Shown: positions 1,800-40,809 of the stretch, one piece after another
Position numbering within the stretch: the first letter of the stretch is position 1
Layout: the number at the start of each line of letters is the position of its first letter
Source of the DNA: a virus
Lineage: Duplodnaviria; Caudoviricetes
Length of the DNA: 42,612 nucleotides
Virus record (IMG/VR): IMGVR_UViG_3300049171_000178
Span: 1 to 42,612 of that record
Strand: one strand, 5' to 3'
Notes under the pieces: generated by a model
Seen by the model: the letters and a program-made list of their open reading frames with translations, nothing else
Database searches by the model: none
What the model was told of the DNA's origin: nothing
Translations under genes and position numbers: made by a program

Positions 1800-2051
1800 A
1801 TGCCTGAACACCCGCTCCGCACCGTGAAGCCCGCGACCGACACCGACGGCTCGACCTACGACTACCGAGGCGCGGTGATCCTCTCCAACAAGCAGGGCAC
1901 GAACCTGACGTTCAGCCTAAAGGGGTTCCCGCACGGGAAGTCCGGCCGATGGAGCGGGATAGGGAACATCGCCGAGATCCGCCGGGTGGTGGATGCGTGG
2001 CTGGATCACGGGCGGCTGCCGGCGCCGTATGTGATGGCGGCCGAACGGTGA
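1800..2051 (+). CDS. Hypothetical protein (83 aa)
   Basis: Protein-like ORF directly upstream of the nuclease gene. Confidence 0.55.
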   Translation: MPEHPLRTVKPATDTDGSTYDYRGAVILSNKQGTNLTFSLKGFPHGKSGRWSGIGNIAEIRRVVDAWLDHGRLPAPYVMAAER

Positions 2052-2095
2052 GCGGCAGCAACGCCATCTTCACCGCGTCGCGCTACACCCTTCCG

Positions 2096-2566
2096 ATGCT
2101 CATCCGCACCCTGGTTCTCCTCCTCGCCCTCGCCTCCCCTGCACTGGCCGAGGAGCTGCGCGGCCGGGTGGTCGGCATCACGGACGGCGACACCCTCACG
2201 CTCCTGACGCCGGAGCGCCGGGAGGTGAAGATCCGCCTAGCCGGGATCGACACCCCCGAAAGCCGGCAGCCATACGGCACGCGCGCCCGGCAGGCGCTGT
2301 CAGACCTCGCCTTCCGACGCGACGTGCGGGTCGATGTGCAGGACACCGATCGCTATGGCCGGACAGTCGGGCGCATCTATGCCGGCCGGGTGGATGTGAA
2401 TGCTGAGATGGTCCGCCGCGGGGCCGCCTGGGTGTACCGGCGCTACAGCCATGACCCGTTGCTGCTGGTGCTGGAGAATGAGGCGAGGCAGGCGCGCCGC
2501 GGCGTGTGGGCGCTGCCGGAGAGCCGGAGGACGCCGCCGTGGGAGTGGCGGCGGGAGGGGCGCTGA
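2096..2566 (+). CDS. Secreted thermonuclease (SNase/micrococcal nuclease family)
   Basis: Signal peptide MLIRTLVLLLALASPALA; motifs DGDT, IRLAGIDTPE, DRYGRTVG, VNAEMVRRGAAW, RRGVW; start moved to ATG 2096. Confidence 0.93.
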   Translation: MLIRTLVLLLALASPALAEELRGRVVGITDGDTLTLLTPERREVKIRLAGIDTPESRQPYGTRARQALSDLAFRRDVRVDVQDTDRYGRTVGRIYAGRVDVNAEMVRRGAAWVYRRYSHDPLLLVLENEARQARRGVWALPESRRTPPWEWRREGR

Positions 2567-3076: not shown

Positions 3077-4435
3077 GTGCTCTACCGCGACCGGGATTTC
3101 GCGAGGGAGTTCGAGGAAGGTGCCGGCGCCGCTAATTGGCGCCAGCCGTTCGCCAGGGATTACGGCAGGGTAATCCATAGTGCGAGCTTCCGGCGTCTGC
3201 AGGGGAAGACGCAGGTCTTCCCAGGCCACGAATCCGATTTCTTTCGCAACAGGCTGACGCATTCATTGGAAGTTGCTCAGATTGCGGAAGGCATCGCTGA
3301 GAGGCTCAACTACGTTGATGCTAATCTCAAGGACCTGCCGCGCGAGCAGCAGATCGACCAGAGACTCTGCGCAACAGCGAGTCTGCTGCACGACCTTGGC
3401 CATCCTCCTTTCGGGCACAATGGCGAGCGTGCGCTCGATGATCTGATGCGGCAGCACGGTGGATTTGAAGGGAATGCTCAGACCCTTCGGATCATCGCGC
3501 GTCTGGAAAAAAAGGTGAAAGGTTCCGACGGCTCGCCCCTGGGGCTCGGTCTGACATTTCGCACGTTGGCTGCCGTTCTAAAGTATGATGAACAGATTCC
3601 TCGTTCGCGAAGGCCAAGCGATAAGCTCGCTAAAGGCTATTACTACACCGAGGCAGACCTCGTCCGGCGGATAAAGGAGGCGGTGGCAGGTGTCAGGGAA
3701 TGGAAGCCGCGGGAGTTCAGGACTGTCGAATGCTCAGTTATGGATGTGGCGGACGACATCGCCTACTCCACATTCGACCTTGAAGACTCATTGAAGGCAG
3801 GTTTCCTCACGCCGTCATCCATTTTGTCGTCCAGCGAAAAGCTGCTTCAGGCCGTAGCAGACAAGGTCAAGAAGGAACTTGGCTACACGTTCAGCGCTCG
3901 TGACGTACTGAGGGTGTTCGCTGAAATCTTTGCGCCCGATGAAGACGGCGACATCGACGACTTGTCCGACTTCGGTGAGGTGTATCGGATGCACCGGAAT
4001 ATTGCAGCATCGGGATACCTTCGCACGAAGCTGTCGTCTGAACTTGTAAAGAAGGCCATCAACTCAGCCGATGTTGACTTCAACAGCGCTCATCCGATGC
4101 TATCCACGGTCAGGCTTTCGAAGGAGAGCAGAGAACGAGTGGAGGTTCTCAAACAGTACACCTATGTTGCCACCATCTACTCCTCACGCGTGAGCCTGCC
4201 TGAATATCGAGGATACGAGGTTGTGAAGGGCATCTTCACGGCCCTTGCTGGCGAGAGAGGGTTCTTGCTTATGCCCCAGGATGTCCGTGACCAACACGAG
4301 GCCGCAAAGGGCGATATGGATACTCAGATGCGGGTGGTCTGTGATTTCGTCGCGGGCATGACAGATCGCTATGCGATGGAGTTCTACGGCAGGCTGCACT
4401 CCGATTCGGCGCAGAGCATGTTCAAGCCGGTCTGA
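3077..4435 (+). CDS. dgt: dGTP/dNTP triphosphohydrolase (HD domain, Dgt family)
   Basis: Motifs RDYGRVIHSASFRRLQGKTQVF, RNRLTHSLEVAQI, LLHDLGHPPFGHNGE, FEGNAQ, ADDIAY, DFVAGMTDRYA. Confidence 0.95.
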   Translation: MLYRDRDFAREFEEGAGAANWRQPFARDYGRVIHSASFRRLQGKTQVFPGHESDFFRNRLTHSLEVAQIAEGIAERLNYVDANLKDLPREQQIDQRLCATASLLHDLGHPPFGHNGERALDDLMRQHGGFEGNAQTLRIIARLEKKVKGSDGSPLGLGLTFRTLAAVLKYDEQIPRSRRPSDKLAKGYYYTEADLVRRIKEAVAGVREWKPREFRTVECSVMDVADDIAYSTFDLEDSLKAGFLTPSSILSSSEKLLQAVADKVKKELGYTFSARDVLRVFAEIFAPDEDGDIDDLSDFGEVYRMHRNIAASGYLRTKLSSELVKKAINSADVDFNSAHPMLSTVRLSKESRERVEVLKQYTYVATIYSSRVSLPEYRGYEVVKGIFTALAGERGFLLMPQDVRDQHEAAKGDMDTQMRVVCDFVAGMTDRYAMEFYGRLHSDSAQSMFKPV

Positions 4436-4465
4436 CCGACCGGTTTCGCTAAGCGGTCGCGCCAC

Positions 4466-4561
4466 TCACCGCAACGCCTCCAACGCGGCCTGATAGAGCG
4501 CCCACCGGTCCTCGGCACCGTTCAGCCCTCCGTTGATACGGCCGGCTAGAGCGACGAACTC
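4466..4561 (-). pseudogene. C-terminal relic of a glycoside hydrolase family 19 endolysin
   Basis: Minus-strand translation EFVALAGRINGGLNGAEDRWALYQAALEALR* matches the GH19 endolysin ending (RINGG.NG..DR...Y..A..AL); no start or catalytic half. Confidence 0.75.
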
Positions 4562-4599
4562 ACGGAGCAGGCCCGGCGATCTCGACCCTAACACCCGGT

Positions 4600-5103
4600 T
4601 CAGACCAACACCCGCTCCCCCGCCACAGCCTCTAGCGCGTTCCGCCAGTGGCCCGCCCAGGTAGCAGGGTGGGGCTTCCCTGGCCTCCAGCAGCGGACAT
4701 AGTAATTCCAGCCCTCGTCCGGCTGATCCACCCCAGGCAGCGCCCGCGGATCGGTGAACAGCAGCAGCCGGGCGAAGACGCAGGCGAGGTCGTCGTTGTG
4801 CTCCAGTGCCGGGTGCACCGCCTCCGGCGTGGCCGGCACAAGCAAGGCCTCGCAGGCCGCCAAGGCAGCGGTGCGCGACGCGGCGTGCCGCAGCACCCCG
4901 GTAACGCCCCCGCCCCGTTCGAACTGCCAGAGGCCCATGGCGTGCGCGACCGGCACCTGCCGACGGTGCCTAAACCCGCTCTCCTGGCCAGCAATGGCCA
5001 GAAGCATAACCCGCGCCCGGTCGTCTGACCTGATGCCGAGCGCCTGCATCCAGGCGAGGGCCGGATCCACCGTCAGGGTGAGGAGGAGGGCGGGGGTCAT
5101 CAC
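4600..5103 (-). CDS. Putative endolysin, lysozyme/transglycosylase-like fold
   Basis: LLAIAGQES...GLWQFE motifs (catalytic Glu, GLxQ) and WRPGKPH; last gene of the late operon. Confidence 0.8.
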   Translation of the reverse strand: MMTPALLLTLTVDPALAWMQALGIRSDDRARVMLLAIAGQESGFRHRRQVPVAHAMGLWQFERGGGVTGVLRHAASRTAALAACEALLVPATPEAVHPALEHNDDLACVFARLLLFTDPRALPGVDQPDEGWNYYVRCWRPGKPHPATWAGHWRNALEAVAGERVLV

Positions 5104-6239
5104 CCAGCCCCCAGCAGCCGCCGGACCTTGGCAAGCGCCGCCTCGGCCTCGTCCAGCGCGACCGCGATAGGCCGAAGGTCCACCGCCTCCGGCTCTTCCT
5201 CGGCCGGCTGCTCCGGGACATGCGGCGGCACCTGCTCTGCCGGCTGCCCAGGCTCCGGCTGCGGGGCTGGCGTCCCCTGCCCCGGAACACCCTTCCCGTC
5301 CAGCAGCACGCCTGCCCAGGTGGTCACGAAGGCCTTCACTTCATCAGCCGGGCGCAGCGCGTAGGTGTAGGGCACCTTGAAGTCCGTGGTGTTCTTTCCG
5401 TCCTGCGCCGAAGCTTCGCCCTTCTCGACCTTTCCCCAGGTCGGGTTCTCGATGATGTTGCCCTTCAAATTCCATCGCCCGACCGTCTTGCTGTCCTCGC
5501 TGACGATCGGATCGTGCACGTTTTCGAAGACGTTGTTCTCGATCAGCGCCTCAGCACCTTGGCGGATGTTGCAGCCGCTGGTCTCCACGTTCTTCAGGTA
5601 GTTGTTGTAGAAGTGGCCCTTGCCGCCCCGCAGCAGCGGGCAGCGCGATCCTACCTCGTGGTAGTAGTTATGGTTCCAGGTGATCTCGGTGCTGTCGATA
5701 TCGCTGTCGCTGGAGCCGACTAGCCCAACCTTGTGATGGTCAAAGAACTCGTTGAAGATTATCGCAATCTTCCGGGTGTTGTGCTTCAGGTCGCAGAGCC
5801 CATCGAAGTGATCCTTGTCGACCTGCATGCTGCCGCGGCAGCGATTGTGCAGGATGATGCCCATCTGACAGTTCTTCTCGACGCCGATGGCATCCTTCGG
5901 GCCCTGGTTTACACGCGCAATATAGAGGTTTCCGATCACGAAATCCTCGCAGGCATCCGCCACATGCACGCCGACATCGGTGATTTTGGCCGTGCCGTTA
6001 CCAATGAGGCTCCAGCGGCTTTGCTTCTTGATGTCGATGGCCGATCCTTTGGTGTTGGCGTCCGTGATGTCGCCATCCACGAACCAGACCACCGGCTCGG
6101 GGCTCTTCTCCTTGCTGCGCGCCGCCGCGGCAGCGTTCAGCTCATCGCCGGTTTTGACGACGACAACCTTGCCTCCATGGCCCCCACGGGTGCCGCGCGC
6201 ATAGCCAGCATGGTCGTCGTAGCGGGTGATATCGAGCAC
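5100..6239 (-). CDS. Polysaccharide lyase family 1 (pectate lyase) with Pro/Glu linker and C-terminal helix
   Basis: GYARGTRGGHGG start, KDAIGVE, DGLCD, HHKVGLVGSSD, ITWNHNYY, RCPLLRGG, HFYNNY, IENNVF; GGAG RBS; no signal peptide. Confidence 0.88.
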   Translation of the reverse strand: MLDITRYDDHAGYARGTRGGHGGKVVVVKTGDELNAAAAARSKEKSPEPVVWFVDGDITDANTKGSAIDIKKQSRWSLIGNGTAKITDVGVHVADACEDFVIGNLYIARVNQGPKDAIGVEKNCQMGIILHNRCRGSMQVDKDHFDGLCDLKHNTRKIAIIFNEFFDHHKVGLVGSSDSDIDSTEITWNHNYYHEVGSRCPLLRGGKGHFYNNYLKNVETSGCNIRQGAEALIENNVFENVHDPIVSEDSKTVGRWNLKGNIIENPTWGKVEKGEASAQDGKNTTDFKVPYTYALRPADEVKAFVTTWAGVLLDGKGVPGQGTPAPQPEPGQPAEQVPPHVPEQPAEEEPEAVDLRPIAVALDEAEAALAKVRRLLGAG

Positions 6240-6253
6240 TGGGGGTCTCCTAT

Positions 6254-6655
6254 TCAGCCGTTGTCGATCGGCGCAGGCGCGACGACCTTGGGGGTGGTGA
6301 GTTCGGCGGTAACCTTCGCGACGATCGCGGCCGCCATAGTCCGCAGCGCCGCTTCGTCGGGCGCCAGCTTGGCGATGGTCTCGGGAAGGTGGCTCTTGGC
6401 GTAGGCCACCACGTCCTCAACCACGAGCGCGGGCAGTGCAGACGCTGGCGTGCCGGTCTTCAGCCGCTCGATCGCCTTGCGGCCCATTGCGCCCAGCACG
6501 AGTTCCATGTCGCGCTGGTGCGTACCGCTGGACAGCCAGGCGCGCAGCGGGCCGGGCAGCAGGGTCACGATGTATGCCCCGCCCGCGCTGATGAGCGCGA
6601 ACAGCAATGGGCCAATGATCTGCGTCACCGCAGCCTCGATGAGACTGTTGAGCAT
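6254..6655 (-). CDS. Putative holin
   Basis: N-terminal hydrophobic segment IIGPLLFALISAGGAYIVTLL; GGAG RBS; position in the lysis cassette. Confidence 0.6.
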   Translation of the reverse strand: MLNSLIEAAVTQIIGPLLFALISAGGAYIVTLLPGPLRAWLSSGTHQRDMELVLGAMGRKAIERLKTGTPASALPALVVEDVVAYAKSHLPETIAKLAPDEAALRTMAAAIVAKVTAELTTPKVVAPAPIDNG

Positions 6656-6772
6656 GCTTATTCTCCAAATTGTCAGGGGTGCCCGGGTGCCGCCGGGCAG
6701 CGGTTAACACATGTGAATGCTACCTCCGGTTGTGCCTGCCCAACTTGACGCAAGCAGACTTGGAGCAGCGGA

Positions 6773-6976
6773 ATGCAATCACTGCCTGAGGGCAGCGCTC
6801 GCATCGTCATGGTCGAGCCCATTCTGGACCCGCTTCGATCCCGAACCGTGGTCTTCGTGCACTACGAGACTGTCCAAGGAGAACGATCCGTCGTGGTGTC
6901 CCCGGAACGTGCTGAGGCCCTTGGCCTCTACGAAGCGCATAGGGGACAAAGGACTGTAGCTGTCCCCCCGGACTGA
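6773..6976 (+). CDS. Small antisense-oriented hypothetical protein (67 aa, moron)
   Basis: GGAG RBS; fills the gap between two minus-strand late genes; short hairpin at 6977-6989. Confidence 0.5.
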   Translation: MQSLPEGSARIVMVEPILDPLRSRTVVFVHYETVQGERSVVVSPERAEALGLYEAHRGQRTVAVPPD

Positions 6977-6992
6977 GCCGCCGGGCGGCGGG

Positions 6993-7673
6993 TCAGGTCT
7001 CGCGCTCAGCCGGAATGAACACGGCCGGCGTGTCCTCGTCTGTGCCGTTGCGCGGTAGTGGTCCGGATAACCGGTTCTCCAGCCGCTCCTGGCGCCGCAG
7101 GATCTCTTCGACCCGCGGCAATAGTCCGGCGATGGTCTGGGCAAGCTGGGCGATGCGCTCGGTGCCGGCTTGGTCGGCCTGGGCCAGAACCCGCACCTGA
7201 TCCTGTAGCGCCTGCTGCTGCTGGTCCCGGATGCGGGTGGCCGTCGCCATTGCGGTATCGGTCTGCACGATCTTAGCCTCGGCAGCCTGCAGTCGGTTAC
7301 TGGCAGCAGTAAGTGCGGCAGTAGCCTCGACGCGGTTCCGCTCCAGCAAGTCCAGCCGCGAGTTAACCGGCGTAATCGCGAGGTTCCAGATGATGCCGAG
7401 GATGGTGAGGCCCGCCACGACCACACCACCCACGGCGCCGACGATCTTCAGCCACACGGGCACATCGCTGATTGCAGCCGCCGCGGCAGGCTGACGCGCC
7501 GCCAGGTGCTCAACGGCTATGCGCTGCTGCTGGTAGCCCTTCACGTCGTGGGCCTGCTGTTTGGCGGCGGCCGTGTCCTTGGCGAGTTCAGTGACCTGCG
7601 CCGTGAGCTGCTGGATCGCTGCCGCGATGTCTATCTCAGCCTTGGGCGCCGCGGCGCCGCCCCTTAGAGGCAT
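6993..7673 (-). CDS. Single-pass membrane coiled-coil protein, possible lysis accessory
   Basis: Central TM segment WLKIVGAVGGVVVAGLTILGIIWNLAI flanked by heptad-like Q/A/L-rich helices; GAGGGG RBS. Confidence 0.7.
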   Translation of the reverse strand: MPLRGGAAAPKAEIDIAAAIQQLTAQVTELAKDTAAAKQQAHDVKGYQQQRIAVEHLAARQPAAAAAISDVPVWLKIVGAVGGVVVAGLTILGIIWNLAITPVNSRLDLLERNRVEATAALTAASNRLQAAEAKIVQTDTAMATATRIRDQQQQALQDQVRVLAQADQAGTERIAQLAQTIAGLLPRVEEILRRQERLENRLSGPLPRNGTDEDTPAVFIPAERET

Positions 7674-7710
7674 CTAACCCCTCCCCCTCTGCGGCACGAT
7701 CAGGCTCCGG

Positions 7711-8850
7711 TCACGCGAGCAGCAGAACGTCAGCAAGGAACCCGGCGGTGTGGTCATATCCAGCCGCGTTGAGGTGGAGCGTATCGAAGAACAACCCACG
7801 GGCGCTGGAAGCCGCATAGGTCCCCAGCAGCTCCGCCATGTTGACCACCACACAGTCCTTCTCCGCGGCAAGATCGTAGATAAGGCCGCGCAGAATGACT
7901 TCGAGGGCCTGCGACCCGCCTGACGGCACGACCAGGTGCGGGACCATCAGGACCGCGTCGCCCGAAACCTGGGCGTTCGTGATGATGGTCCGCATGTTAG
8001 CGGTGAAGGTCCCGTCCGTGATGGTCGTCGGCAACGTCCGCACGTCATTGATGCCGAGATTGATGATTGTGAGGTCCGGGGCATAGGTGGCGACGCCAGG
8101 CAGGGGCGCATACCCGACATTCGCTGCGACCCAGATGGCCGCGGTGCTGCCGGAGTGGCCCATGTTCTGCACCCGCACGCTTGGCGCGGCGCTGTTGAAC
8201 ATCTCGAAGCCCGCGATATAGACCGTGCCGGCGCCATCCACCCGATTGATCGCCAGGGAATGCACACCGAGGGGCACGGATATGCTGGTGCTTTGAAGGC
8301 TGTTGGCTCCCGATGTGGCGATTGGGGCGCTCGCCGCGCCGCCATCCACCGAGTGGGTGAACGTGCCCGTCCCGCTGTTGCGGACCCAGTAGATGACGAT
8401 GGTGTCGGCCTGAACCTGCGGCGCCCAGCCTAATGCGCCCGCGCCGTTGGTGCTGCACGAGAACGGATTTCCGCCCGGAGACGGTCCTGCGCTGTTGGCC
8501 CACCCTGTGCCGAGGCTGAGTTGCGGGTTGCCCGTGACAAGGCCGCCGTCCCCGCTGTTGGCCCATACATTCGCGTATGTTGTCTTCAGGCGAGGGTCAC
8601 GCGCGGTCAGCATGGCGGCGAGCTGCGCCGGCATGGAGCGTGCCCGCGCGTCTGTGTACTTCGTCCCGCCCGTGCCTGCGCCGAGACCGGCGGTCGTGCT
8701 GTCGCCGATACAGGCGAGCTTGGGGGACGCCTCGCCCATCCGCGCCTTGGCTCGCGCGACCTTCCAGCGCGGCAGGCTGTCGCGCCGATAGTTGAACACG
8801 CCAGGAGTTGGGTTCTTCGCGAGCGCGAAGGAGACTGCATCGAACGGCAT
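7711..8850 (-). CDS. SGNH/GDSL hydrolase, probably a tail-associated esterase
   Basis: All four blocks: CIGDSTT, NMGHSG, LGIND, DTLHLN. Confidence 0.88.
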   Translation of the reverse strand: MPFDAVSFALAKNPTPGVFNYRRDSLPRWKVARAKARMGEASPKLACIGDSTTAGLGAGTGGTKYTDARARSMPAQLAAMLTARDPRLKTTYANVWANSGDGGLVTGNPQLSLGTGWANSAGPSPGGNPFSCSTNGAGALGWAPQVQADTIVIYWVRNSGTGTFTHSVDGGAASAPIATSGANSLQSTSISVPLGVHSLAINRVDGAGTVYIAGFEMFNSAAPSVRVQNMGHSGSTAAIWVAANVGYAPLPGVATYAPDLTIINLGINDVRTLPTTITDGTFTANMRTIITNAQVSGDAVLMVPHLVVPSGGSQALEVILRGLIYDLAAEKDCVVVNMAELLGTYAASSARGLFFDTLHLNAAGYDHTAGFLADVLLLA

Positions 8851-39609: not shown

Positions 39610-40809
39610 ATGCCTGATGGGATGACCTATGCCGAGAAGGCTGAGGCGCAGGCGGCCATCGCGGCGCCGGCGAGCGGTGCACTGGTCCTGGCCGGGCACC
39701 TGCTGAACGCGGCGCGGATCGCGAAGCTTGCCACCGCGCGACGCAACACCGTCCCCATCCTCTCCAACCTGCTGCTGCAGGTCGAGGATGAGGTGCTGAC
39801 GGCTGTGGGCACCGACATGGAGCTTCGCAGCGCCGCCATCGCCCCGGCGCGCGGAACGCTGGGCCCGGTCACCGTCTCCGCACAGGTGCTGGTGGACCTG
39901 CTAGCCCGCTTGCCTCCCGATGCCGAGGTAACGCTGGAGGAGGACAAGGCGCTGGGTCGCCTGATCCTGCGCGCGCCAGGTCTCACCGCGAAAATGTTCG
40001 CCCTGCCGGCGGAGGACTTCCCCTCGTTCAACGGGCCAGCACCGCGGGCTTGCGAGTTCGACATTCCGGTCGCGTCGCTGCGGCGGCTGCTGACCCTGCC
40101 GGGGCACGCGATAAGCACCGAGGAGACGCGTTACTACCTCAACGGCCTCTATCTCCACATCGCCACCGCGCCGGAGTCGAAGCTCTGTACGGTGGCGACG
40201 GATGGTCATCGCCTGGCGCTGGCGGAGGAGGAGGTGCCGGTGGGCGCGGCGCGGATGCCCGACGTCATCGTGCCGCGTGGCGCGGTGTCGGTCGTGCGGG
40301 GCCTTCTCTCCCAACGCCTGACCGGCGCCGTCCGGGTCACGGTCTCGGACACGCGCGTGCGCTTCGTCGCGCCGGGTTGGGTCATCCAGGCCAAGGTGAT
40401 CGACGGCACCTACCCGGACTGGCGGCGGGTCGTACCGGCCCAAGGGCAGGCCAAGCGCCGCCTGAAGGTGCCGGATCCGAAGGGCTTCGCCCGGCTGCTG
40501 GAGATGGCGGCGAGCATCTCCTCCGAGCGCTCGCGTCCTGTGCGGATTGAGAAGCGCCAGGGCGACACAACCGTGTGGATCACCGTCGCCAGCCCCGATC
40601 AGGGCGAGGCAGAGTTGCAGATGCCGCAGGACGTGGCGGCCTGGGACGAGGCGTCGCCCGAGGTCCAGGTCGGCTTCCAGATGCGCTACCTGCGTGCCGT
40701 GGCCCATGCCGTACCGAGCGGCCTGACCTTCCACATCCAGGATCCCTCAGCGCCGATGCGGGTGGAGTTCCCCGCCGGCCTGGCGGTCCTCATGCCGATG
40801 AGGGTCTGA
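39610..40809 (+). CDS. dnaN: DNA polymerase III beta sliding clamp homolog
   Basis: RRNTVPILSN.LL, GTDME, LPAEDFP, AISTEETRYYLNG, VATDGHRLA, IVPR, KVIDGTYPDW.RVVP, VLMPMRV. Confidence 0.93.
   Translation: MPDGMTYAEKAEAQAAIAAPASGALVLAGHLLNAARIAKLATARRNTVPILSNLLLQVEDEVLTAVGTDMELRSAAIAPARGTLGPVTVSAQVLVDLLARLPPDAEVTLEEDKALGRLILRAPGLTAKMFALPAEDFPSFNGPAPRACEFDIPVASLRRLLTLPGHAISTEETRYYLNGLYLHIATAPESKLCTVATDGHRLALAEEEVPVGAARMPDVIVPRGAVSVVRGLLSQRLTGAVRVTVSDTRVRFVAPGWVIQAKVIDGTYPDWRRVVPAQGQAKRRLKVPDPKGFARLLEMAASISSERSRPVRIEKRQGDTTVWITVASPDQGEAELQMPQDVAAWDEASPEVQVGFQMRYLRAVAHAVPSGLTFHIQDPSAPMRVEFPAGLAVLMPMRV

What the first reader, a model, noticed from the sequence alone, without database searches (positions are those of the whole stretch)
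4600..6655. Pectate lyase inserted inside the lysis cassette (holin - PL1 lyase - endolysin)
Seen: a PL1 beta-helix enzyme retaining the Ca-binding Asp residues, the Lys and the RxPxxR catalytic motif. It has no signal peptide and no tail-fibre anchor, and it overlaps the endolysin start by 4 nt. The usual vWiDH motif is replaced by IILHN. Known: PL1 enzymes are normally secreted bacterial or fungal pectinases, while phage depolymerases are usually tailspikes. Inference: a lysis-released soluble depolymerase, acting either on host uronic-acid EPS/capsule to free progeny or on plant pectin as a public good for sibling lysogens.
Basis: partly seen in the sequence, partly recalled or inferred. 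Interest (0 to 1): 0.8.

Follow-up and report, generated by a model that had tools for sequence, protein, structure and literature searches.

The report
Phage lysis-cassette capsule-cutting pectate lyase
A soil phage carries an intact pectate-lyase-family gene between its holin-like gene and its lysozyme-fold gene, and relatives keep it in their lysis cassettes; it likely spills out when the cell bursts and likely cuts the host bacterium's own predicted pectin-like capsule rather than plant pectin.

Summary
Confirmed, and sharpened. ORF 5100-6239(-) is a PL1 beta-helix (Pfam E 5e-23; TM 0.93 to a Bacillus pectate lyase) with invariant catalytic residues, no signal peptide, and dN/dS about 0.05. 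It lies between a holin-like gene and a lysozyme-fold gene. The same clade sits directly before an endolysin-like gene in 12 complete cassettes (five endolysin families, several capsid types, three isolate prophages), and has no match in 50,697 annotated phage records. Its nearest cellular kin are RTX-tailed PL1s of one Roseomonas lineage. These hosts showed no GH28, pectin methylesterase, GH88/105, KduI or Ogl. Instead, 6 of 6 PL1-bearing genomes (1 of 19 others) carry a Vi-antigen-like capsule locus (TviE, TviD, VexA-D, VexL homologues, UDP-glucose dehydrogenase, UDP-glucuronate-epimerase-like gene), with a PL1 beside or inside it. Two hosts hold a recaptured phage-clade copy next to the VexL-like gene. 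Best reading (0.6): a burst-released, likely Ca2+-dependent lyase against the host's own alpha-1,4-uronate capsule. The plant-pectin reading is disfavoured. Activity, substrate and localisation are untested.

The parts
6254..6655 (-). Holin-like membrane protein, 133 aa (holin function not shown)
   Evidence: One hydrophobic stretch near the N-terminus; phrog_17576, unknown function. Homologues precede GH19/GH24 lysozymes in L054/L055 and an SLT-type gene in L098.
6246..6251 (-). Shine-Dalgarno-like AGGAGA, 6 nt before the PL1 GTG start
   Evidence: Sequence directly; AGGAG precedes the start in 10 of 10 cassettes printed.
5100..6239 (-). PL1 polysaccharide lyase gene, 379 aa, no signal peptide
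5307..6206 (-). Catalytic parallel beta-helix (residues 12-311) with D116, D146, D150, K152, K170, R199-x-P201-x-x-R204; 6 Cys; vWiDH lost
5175..5306 (-). Pro/Glu/Gln-rich flexible linker (residues 312-355)
   Evidence: pLDDT below 50 over residues 321-351.
5115..5174 (-). C-terminal heptad helix (residues 356-375), near-identical across alleles whose catalytic domains are about 40% alike; a one-heptad insertion in L006/P0007; its DNA also holds the upstream region of the endolysin start
4600..5103 (-). Endolysin-like protein of the lysozyme superfamily (SLT-like, invariant QES and WQF), phrog_3108
6993..7673 (-). Membrane/coiled-coil protein upstream of the cassette; marks the host lineage
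   Evidence: One hydrophobic segment; matches in 4 of 25 genus genomes, all capsule-bearing.
7711..8850 (-). SGNH/GDSL esterase at the end of the tail module; possible capsule de-O-acetylase (untested, not shared by most PL1 phages)
   Evidence: Pfam PF13472 E 1e-17, phrog_15881 tail; no homologue among 23 related loci.

Best explanation
The gene encodes a signal-less PL1 lyase, kept under purifying selection between a holin-like gene and a lysozyme-fold gene, that likely accumulates in the cytoplasm late in infection, is likely released when the cell bursts, and likely cuts the host Roseomonas lineage's own Vi-like capsule, predicted to be an alpha-1,4-galacturonate polymer. Steps: (1) Shown: intact PL1 active site, cassette position, selection. 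(2) Shown by tree: the phage proteins form one clade next to alphaproteobacterial RTX-tailed PL1s; the RTX export tail is replaced by a linker and helix, Cys are gained and vWiDH is lost. (3) Inferred: made with the lysis proteins and silent inside the cell, because the Ca-binding aspartates are kept, cytoplasmic Ca2+ is low (recalled), and Vi polymer is shielded during synthesis (PMC6003464). (4) Inferred: after lysis it beta-eliminates the capsule on the carcass and neighbouring cells, freeing progeny and opening the next hosts. It is an accessory helper, not required for lysis.
For: Cassette persistence: PL1 lies directly before an endolysin-like gene in 12 complete cassettes (window, L001, L002, L003, L005, L006, L016, L017, L019, L074, L076, L079). 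These span five endolysin families: SLT-like, GH108, GH19, GH24 and PF11860. In L076 it sits between an Rz1-like spanin (PF23793 E 1e-6) and the endolysin. dN/dS 0.049-0.056 for window vs L001/L002, 0.10-0.35 for six other close pairs. Cytoplasmic signature: 2-14 Cys per domain in 14 phage rows vs 0 in 19 RTX-group rows. Substrate: 6 of 6 genus genomes with this PL1 carry TviE-, TviD- and VexL-like genes vs 1 of 19 without (Fisher p 4e-5). An RTX-PL1 lies within about 7 kb of a TviD- or TviE-like gene on the same contig in G011, G012, G014, G225 and G228. The locus has VexA-D-like export genes, TviE (E 4e-173), UDP-glucose dehydrogenase and an epimerase whose PDB hits include the UDP-glucuronate 4-epimerase MoeE5. 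Three chromosomal signal-less copies nest inside the phage clade (100/99); two of them adjoin the VexL-like gene. No pectin-catabolism families found in the hosts. SLT cassettes in capsule-less G223 and G227 show no PL1. Precedents: PghP of phiNIT1 (PMC6966330) and the TP-84 cluster (PMC10131341).
Against: No activity, expression or localisation data. The capsule's chemistry is inferred from gene families, and all Tvi/Vex matches are below NCBIfam's curated cut-offs. The six capsule-plus-PL1 genomes may be one clade, so the Fisher test overstates independence; several are draft assemblies. The enzyme is closer to true Bacillus and Xanthomonas pectate lyases (E 1e-55 to 1e-34) than to VexL (E 5e-6), so it may well also cut plant polygalacturonate. 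A capsule-bearing host (G013) has a window-type holin directly followed by the SLT gene with no PL1 (L098). G232 has a distant capsule locus and no PL1. The conserved tail helix has no assigned role, and a late-region carbohydrate enzyme of phi24B proved to be a capsid decoration protein (bioRxiv 10.64898/2026.04.10.717836). The window's host is inferred, not observed.
Confidence: 0.6

Rival explanations
1. The lyase is a virion-tethered capsule depolymerase: the C-terminal helix docks on capsid or tail and the linker lets the domain clear a path, as phi24B gp84 decorates its capsid.
For: Domain-linker-helix layout. The tail is far more conserved than the catalytic domain between alleles (87% vs 39% for window vs L003). 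Allelic swapping resembles host-range modules. gp84 precedent; the TP-84 enzyme is both free and virion-bound.
Against: The near-identical tail occurs with unrelated head and tail modules. The window's capsid protein matches 1 of 10 records. G001, G002 and G004 have phrog_264 heads with phrog_205 sheaths. G003 (98% complete) has a phrog_12 portal and no sheath among the ORFs scanned (58 of 138 candidate ORFs scanned). L019, L020, L076 and L079 have different tails. No PHROG structural match. Tail DNA conservation may reflect recombination and the endolysin's translation signal.
Confidence: 0.17
2. The enzyme is a lysis-released pectinase that digests plant pectin as a public good for sibling lysogens.
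For: Closest solved structures are true pectate lyases. The runs holding at least a quarter of the sampled words are labelled soil metagenome. Soil prophage pectinase genes have been catalogued as auxiliary genes (PMC13507307, passages).
Against: No GH28, pectinesterase or GH88/105 in 5 of 5 hosts and no KduI or Ogl in 4 of 4, with controls ringing. PL1 is linked to a capsule locus rather than to sugar uptake or catabolism genes.
Confidence: 0.1
3. The lyase acts inside the lysis event itself: let out through the holin lesion, it cuts periplasmic or envelope-anchored capsule that would otherwise hold the ruptured cell together, a fourth lysis function beside holin, endolysin and spanin.
For: Position inside the cassette with stop-start overlap to the endolysin in 9 of 9 junctions printed. 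No spanin found in the window. VexL shows that capsule in transit is open to periplasmic lyases (PMC6003464).
Against: It coexists with spanin-like genes in L076, L079 and L080, so it does not replace them. Cassettes without PL1 exist in a capsule-bearing host (L098).
Confidence: 0.1
4. An inactive or neutral passenger gene.
For: vWiDH is lost; one prophage copy is frameshifted (L080).
Against: Invariant catalytic set at about 40% identity; dN/dS about 0.05; confident fold; retention across 12 cassettes.
Confidence: 0.03

Closest known systems
PghP poly-gamma-glutamate hydrolase of Bacillus phage phiNIT1 (PMC6966330, passages)
   Same: Late-expressed, apparently non-structural, burst-released capsule-degrading enzyme thought to be acquired from a host.
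   Different: A peptide-bond hydrolase of a Gram-positive phage. Here a PL1 lyase fixed inside the lysis cassette of temperate alphaproteobacterial phages, with deep allelic diversity and recapture by hosts.
TP-84 depolymerase-holin-endolysin cluster (PMC10131341, passages)
   Same: Capsule depolymerase gene clustered with holin and endolysin; soluble forms in the lysate.
   Different: A 112-kDa glycosyl hydrolase also built into virions, lying before the holin. Here a 379-aa PL1 between holin-like gene and endolysin.
VexL, periplasmic Vi-antigen lyase, PL1 (PMC6003464; 6fi2)
   Same: PL1 beta-helix with catalytic Arg acting on a bacterial alpha-1,4-uronate capsule. The inferred hosts encode a VexL-like gene in a Vi-like locus.
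   Different: VexL is signal-bearing, metal-independent and lacks the Ca-binding aspartates. This protein keeps them, has no signal peptide, is phage-borne and is only distantly related (E 5e-6).
Bacillus and Xanthomonas PL1 pectate lyases (7xks, 3vmv, 2qx3)
   Same: Fold (TM 0.84-0.93 over the target), Ca-binding Asp set, RxPxxR.
   Different: Those are secreted pectinases (recalled). This one lacks an export signal and vWiDH, is Cys-rich, and carries a linker and helix.
NanS-p / gp84 esterase of Stx phages (bioRxiv 10.64898/2026.04.10.717836; PMC10462455)
   Same: Carbohydrate-active enzyme in the late region near lysis genes, once read as a host-fitness gene.
   Different: gp84 decorates the capsid via N-terminal DUF1737. 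No such domain here, and the tail does not track capsid type.
Phage tailspike depolymerases labelled 'pectate lyase domain'
   Same: Beta-helix enzymes against capsule.
   Different: Trimeric virion parts with an N-terminal anchor (recalled). The model matches the K1 tailspike lyase 7w1c only at E 7e-3, TM 0.14.

Membership tests
Polysaccharide lyase family 1 (pectate lyase type) | Right-handed parallel beta-helix matching PL1 structures | tested here: met
   PF00544 E 5e-23; Foldseek TM 0.93 to 7xks.
Polysaccharide lyase family 1 (pectate lyase type) | Ca-binding aspartates, Lys and RxPxxR catalytic motif | tested here: met
   D116, D146, D150, K170, R199, P201, R204 aligned to 7xks/3vmv and invariant; residue roles recalled.
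Polysaccharide lyase family 1 (pectate lyase type) | vWiDH structural motif (usual, not obligatory) | tested here: not met
   GIILHN; 0 of 16 phage-type vs 73 of 76 others.
Polysaccharide lyase family 1 (pectate lyase type) | Beta-elimination on alpha-1,4-galacturonan | not testable with these tools
   Needs an A235 assay.
Secreted pectinase | Sec/Tat signal or RTX type I export tail | tested here: not met
   No hydrophobic N-terminus (hydropathy only); no RTX repeats, unlike host relatives.
Tailspike depolymerase | N-terminal virion anchor and tailspike-type fold | tested here: not met
   PL1 alignment starts at residue 10-14; no PHROG; weak match to 7w1c.
Virion-decorating enzyme (gp84-like) | Docking module whose distribution follows the capsid type | tested here: inconclusive
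   Same tail with different head modules; presence in virions not testable.
Burst-released capsule depolymerase (PghP-like) | Late gene, no export signal, host-derived | tested here: met
   Late-region position and cassette linkage; tree with host RTX-PL1s. Direction of first transfer depends on the root.
Burst-released capsule depolymerase (PghP-like) | Free in lysate and active on host capsule | not testable with these tools
   Genomic co-occurrence only.
VexL subfamily | Signal peptide, no Ca-binding aspartates, high similarity to VexL | tested here: not met
   E 4.9e-6 to 6fi2; aspartates kept.
Holin (6254-6655) | Membrane segment, position before an endolysin, membrane lesion | tested here: inconclusive
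   One hydrophobic stretch, positional support, no holin family match.
Endolysin (4600-5103) | Peptidoglycan-glycosidase fold with catalytic Glu | tested here: met
   Lysozyme-superfamily fold, Z 11.2, rmsd 2.5 over 121 residues; invariant E40-S41; replaced by GH108, GH19, GH24 or PF11860 in the same slot. Activity untested.
Vi-antigen-type (viaB-like) capsule locus in hosts | TviE polymerase, TviD, VexA-D export, uronate precursor enzymes | tested here: inconclusive
   All found as best or strong hits but below curated cut-offs; precursor genes point to UDP-GalA rather than UDP-GalNAcA; no VexE hit seen among the ORFs scanned.

The most novel reading that the evidence does not exclude
One Roseomonas lineage makes a pectin-mimic capsule (O-acetylated or amidated poly-alpha-1,4-galacturonate) with Vi-antigen-type machinery. 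Its temperate phages captured the host's capsule-trimming pectate lyase, stripped its export signal and installed it as a fourth, capsule-clearing member of the lysis cassette. They diversified it into many alleles, and the hosts then took a phage version back into their capsule locus.
Probability: 0.3. Interest if true: 0.88.

Novelty: new variant of a known kind. Interest (0 to 1): 0.72.

Why it matters
How progeny escape from heavily encapsulated hosts is little studied; lysis models stop at membrane, wall and outer membrane. This family gives a clean, deletable gene inside the cassette, in prophages of cultured strains, to test whether capsule clearance is part of release. It is also a caution for soil virome work: a phage pectate lyase that would be scored as a plant-carbon auxiliary gene likely targets the host capsule. 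It points to an undescribed Vi-like, possibly galacturonan, capsule in Alphaproteobacteria, and to a round trip of a gene from host to phage and back.

Tried and rejected
Self-association of the tail helix (residues 340-379, two copies): no answer, score 0.03; not evidence either way. Tail helix on other enzymes: found only on PL1 proteins (3 of 3 viral loci; 7 of 7 proteins of 208-664 aa); other lengths were not searched. Expression: no RNA holder listed. Promoter scan 4300-7800: 0 sigma-70-like sites, and 2 terminator-like sites inside the endolysin gene at chance level, so co-transcription is not shown. Foldseek on the endolysin model gave no significant hit; the wider search did. The metagenome scan gave 10 loci at 30-50% identity whose contexts I did not examine. 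The SGNH esterase as an obligate partner was rejected: no homologue in 23 related loci. The A4 membrane-protein alignment matched 23 of 25 genus genomes, mostly in longer frames, so it is no marker of prophage cassettes. The Pectobacterium pectin lyase/carotovoricin analogy is recalled; I saw only the search listing and do not rely on it. Earlier scan notes: nothing. The first tree was the quick method. The second was the careful method under LG+G4 and carries a long-branch warning for the window and L006 lineages.

Full report
OBSERVATION. The window is one 42.6-kb virus record with a lambda-like head, a Mu-like contractile tail, and HTH_3 and CII-like regulator genes. On the minus strand after the tail genes lie 6254-6655 (133 aa), 5100-6239 (379 aa) and 4600-5103 (167 aa). 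The middle protein matches Pfam PF00544 at E 5e-23, no PHROG and the Bacillus pectate lyase 7xks at E 1e-55. Its model (pLDDT 87) overlays 7xks with TM 0.93. There is no hydrophobic N-terminus. The downstream gene has a lysozyme-superfamily fold (not significant by Foldseek). The upstream gene is holin-like by position and one hydrophobic stretch only. No spanin was found in the window. Contigs of the possible source run match the region without differences, and a contig of another run spans the holin-PL1 junction with one difference.

A PERSISTENT CASSETTE MEMBER. Scans of viral contigs gave 9 other records with this PL1. In 8 the gene is complete and directly followed by an endolysin-like gene; L020 runs off its contig. 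Prophage-like cassettes in two cultured species add L074, L076 and L079 (complete), L080 (frameshifted) and L081 (short contig). With the window this makes 12 complete cassettes using five endolysin families: SLT-like, GH108, GH19, GH24 and PF11860. The upstream neighbour varies too: two membrane-protein families, an HNH insert in L001/L002, and spanin-like pairs in L076, L079 and L080. Catalytic domains of different alleles are 38-44% identical, yet dN/dS is 0.049-0.056 for the window against L001/L002 and 0.10-0.35 in six other close pairs. The gene is accessory. Related cassettes without it exist (L043, L047, L048, L054, L055), including one in a capsule-bearing host (L098). The viral records may come from few sampling campaigns; the isolate prophages are the independent support. 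tblastn found no match in 50,697 annotated phage records.

ORIGIN. The nearest cellular proteins are RTX-tailed PL1s of Roseomonas harenae, chloroacetimidivorans, xinghualingensis and aerilata. In a 92-row tree the 16 phage-type rows form one group (SH-aLRT 99) inside a 28-row set with the RTX proteins (97) (quick method). The one unlabelled member of the group, P0053, is the L080 prophage fragment. Phage lineages have much longer branches than host paralogues. All 14 phage rows carry 2-14 Cys and lack WxDH, while 19 RTX-group rows have no Cys and keep it. This fits a move from type I export to cytoplasmic folding (inference). The exact donor is unresolved.

SUBSTRATE. Four host genomes hold 5, 17, 6 and 2 matches, but KduI and Ogl were not found in those 4, nor GH28, pectinesterase or GH88/105 in 5, with controls ringing. 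Host PL1 genes are instead tied to a capsule locus. In G012 and G228 it reads: divergent RTX-PL1; VexB/C/D-like ABC export; an epimerase; TviE (E 4e-173 in G012); VexA-like; TviD-like; amidotransferase (seen in G012 and G013); a second TviE-like gene; UDP-glucose dehydrogenase; a type I secretion pair; and a lyase whose G013 homologue has VexL as best PDB hit. TviE and TviD are the Vi polymerase and O-acetyltransferase (PMC8760489, abstract and passages). Vi resembles pectin, and VexL is a PL1 that cuts it (PMC6003464, passages and first part of the Discussion). The epimerase's PDB hits include MoeE5, a UDP-glucuronate 4-epimerase (PMC7984243, passages); its top hit is labelled a dTDP-glucose dehydratase, so the assignment is partly recalled. 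Dehydrogenase plus epimerase point to UDP-galacturonate (inference). Among 25 genus genomes, 6 of 6 with the PL1 have the locus and 1 of 19 without has a distant one (Fisher p 4e-5; not corrected for kinship). In a 201-genome family sample only the centre genome had the PL1, and 2 had a TviE-like match. Three chromosomal signal-less copies nest inside the phage clade; two sit right beside the VexL-like gene, which reads as host recapture into the capsule locus. The window's gene 6993-7673 matches only 4 of the 25 genomes, all capsule-bearing. SLT cassettes of capsule-less G223 and G227 show no PL1.

MECHANISM. Shown: intact active site, selection, position, linkage to a capsule locus in hosts. 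Inferred: late co-translation through the stop-start overlap, cytoplasmic storage, activation by extracellular Ca2+, release at lysis, and beta-elimination of the capsule, freeing progeny and thinning neighbours' capsules (0.6). Virion tethering through the tail helix remains possible (0.17), given phi24B gp84 (bioRxiv 10.64898/2026.04.10.717836, passages). Against it, the same tail rides with different head and tail modules (58 of 138 candidate ORFs scanned) and other alleles have different tails. A role inside envelope rupture (0.1) and plant-pectin sharing (0.1) are weaker.

COMPARISON AND NOVELTY. It would work like PghP of phiNIT1, a burst-released, host-derived capsule hydrolase (PMC6966330, passages), and like the TP-84 depolymerase clustered with holin and endolysin (PMC10131341, passages). 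By fold and active site it is a PL1; it is not a tailspike, a VexL or a secreted pectinase. Literature searches (open-licence library, listings only) showed no paper on a PL1 inside a lysis cassette or on a Vi-like capsule in Roseomonas. Two soil-virus CAZyme surveys (PMC13507307; bioRxiv 10.1101/2024.12.20.629349; passages) count pectinases without describing this in the passages seen. I opened no supplements, and these may list such genes. PMC10462455 was seen as passages. Verdict: new variant of a known kind, interest 0.72.

Noticed in passing
L048:5164-6639 (+): A sibling phage without PL1 has, right after its SLT-type endolysin, a GH26-like glycosidase (PF02156 E 6e-5) ending in a Pro/Glu linker and coiled-coil-like helix: the same layout with another glycan enzyme.
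   Followed up: partly
L043:1735-3564 (+): A 609-aa protein upstream of the holin-like gene: N-terminal helix, Pro linker, and a large domain resembling PcRGLX/RIFT-barrel clusters, several of them rich in viral members (Atlas lead).
   Followed up: partly
window 6773-6976 (+): A 67-aa ORF on the opposite strand just upstream of the cassette, with homologues (34-86%) near the cassette in L001, L002, L015, L016, L017, L019, L020 and L076; no Pfam or PHROG family.
   Followed up: partly
window 3077-4435 (+): dGTPase-like HD-domain gene with lower GC, convergent with the lysis cassette; possible anti-phage moron.
   Followed up: no
window 1949-2566 (+): Staphylococcal-nuclease-like gene near the left end of the record; a similar ORF lies downstream of the cassette in L016.
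   Followed up: no
L091, L092, L093 (G228, G012 C19): Vi-antigen-like capsule locus in soil Roseomonas with two TviE-like polymerases, an amidotransferase, a type I secretion pair, an RTX-PL1 and a VexL-like lyase; not found described in the searches made.
   Followed up: partly
G012: R. chloroacetimidivorans holds 17 matches to this PL1 profile, a large paralogue expansion in a genome without the pectin-catabolism families searched.
   Followed up: partly
L075:4366-5505 (+): Phage-clade PL1 on the chromosome between an endonuclease III-like gene and a PPDK-like gene, ending in a hydrophobic and basic tail instead of the helix.
   Followed up: partly
L101:1731-3464 (-): A holin-like N-terminal region (A4 family) in one 577-aa frame with a C-terminal peptidoglycan-binding-like end, lying between ruvA- and ruvB-like genes; related single-copy matches in most genus genomes.
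   Followed up: no
window 39610-40809 (+): Phage-borne DNA polymerase III beta-clamp homologue.
   Followed up: no
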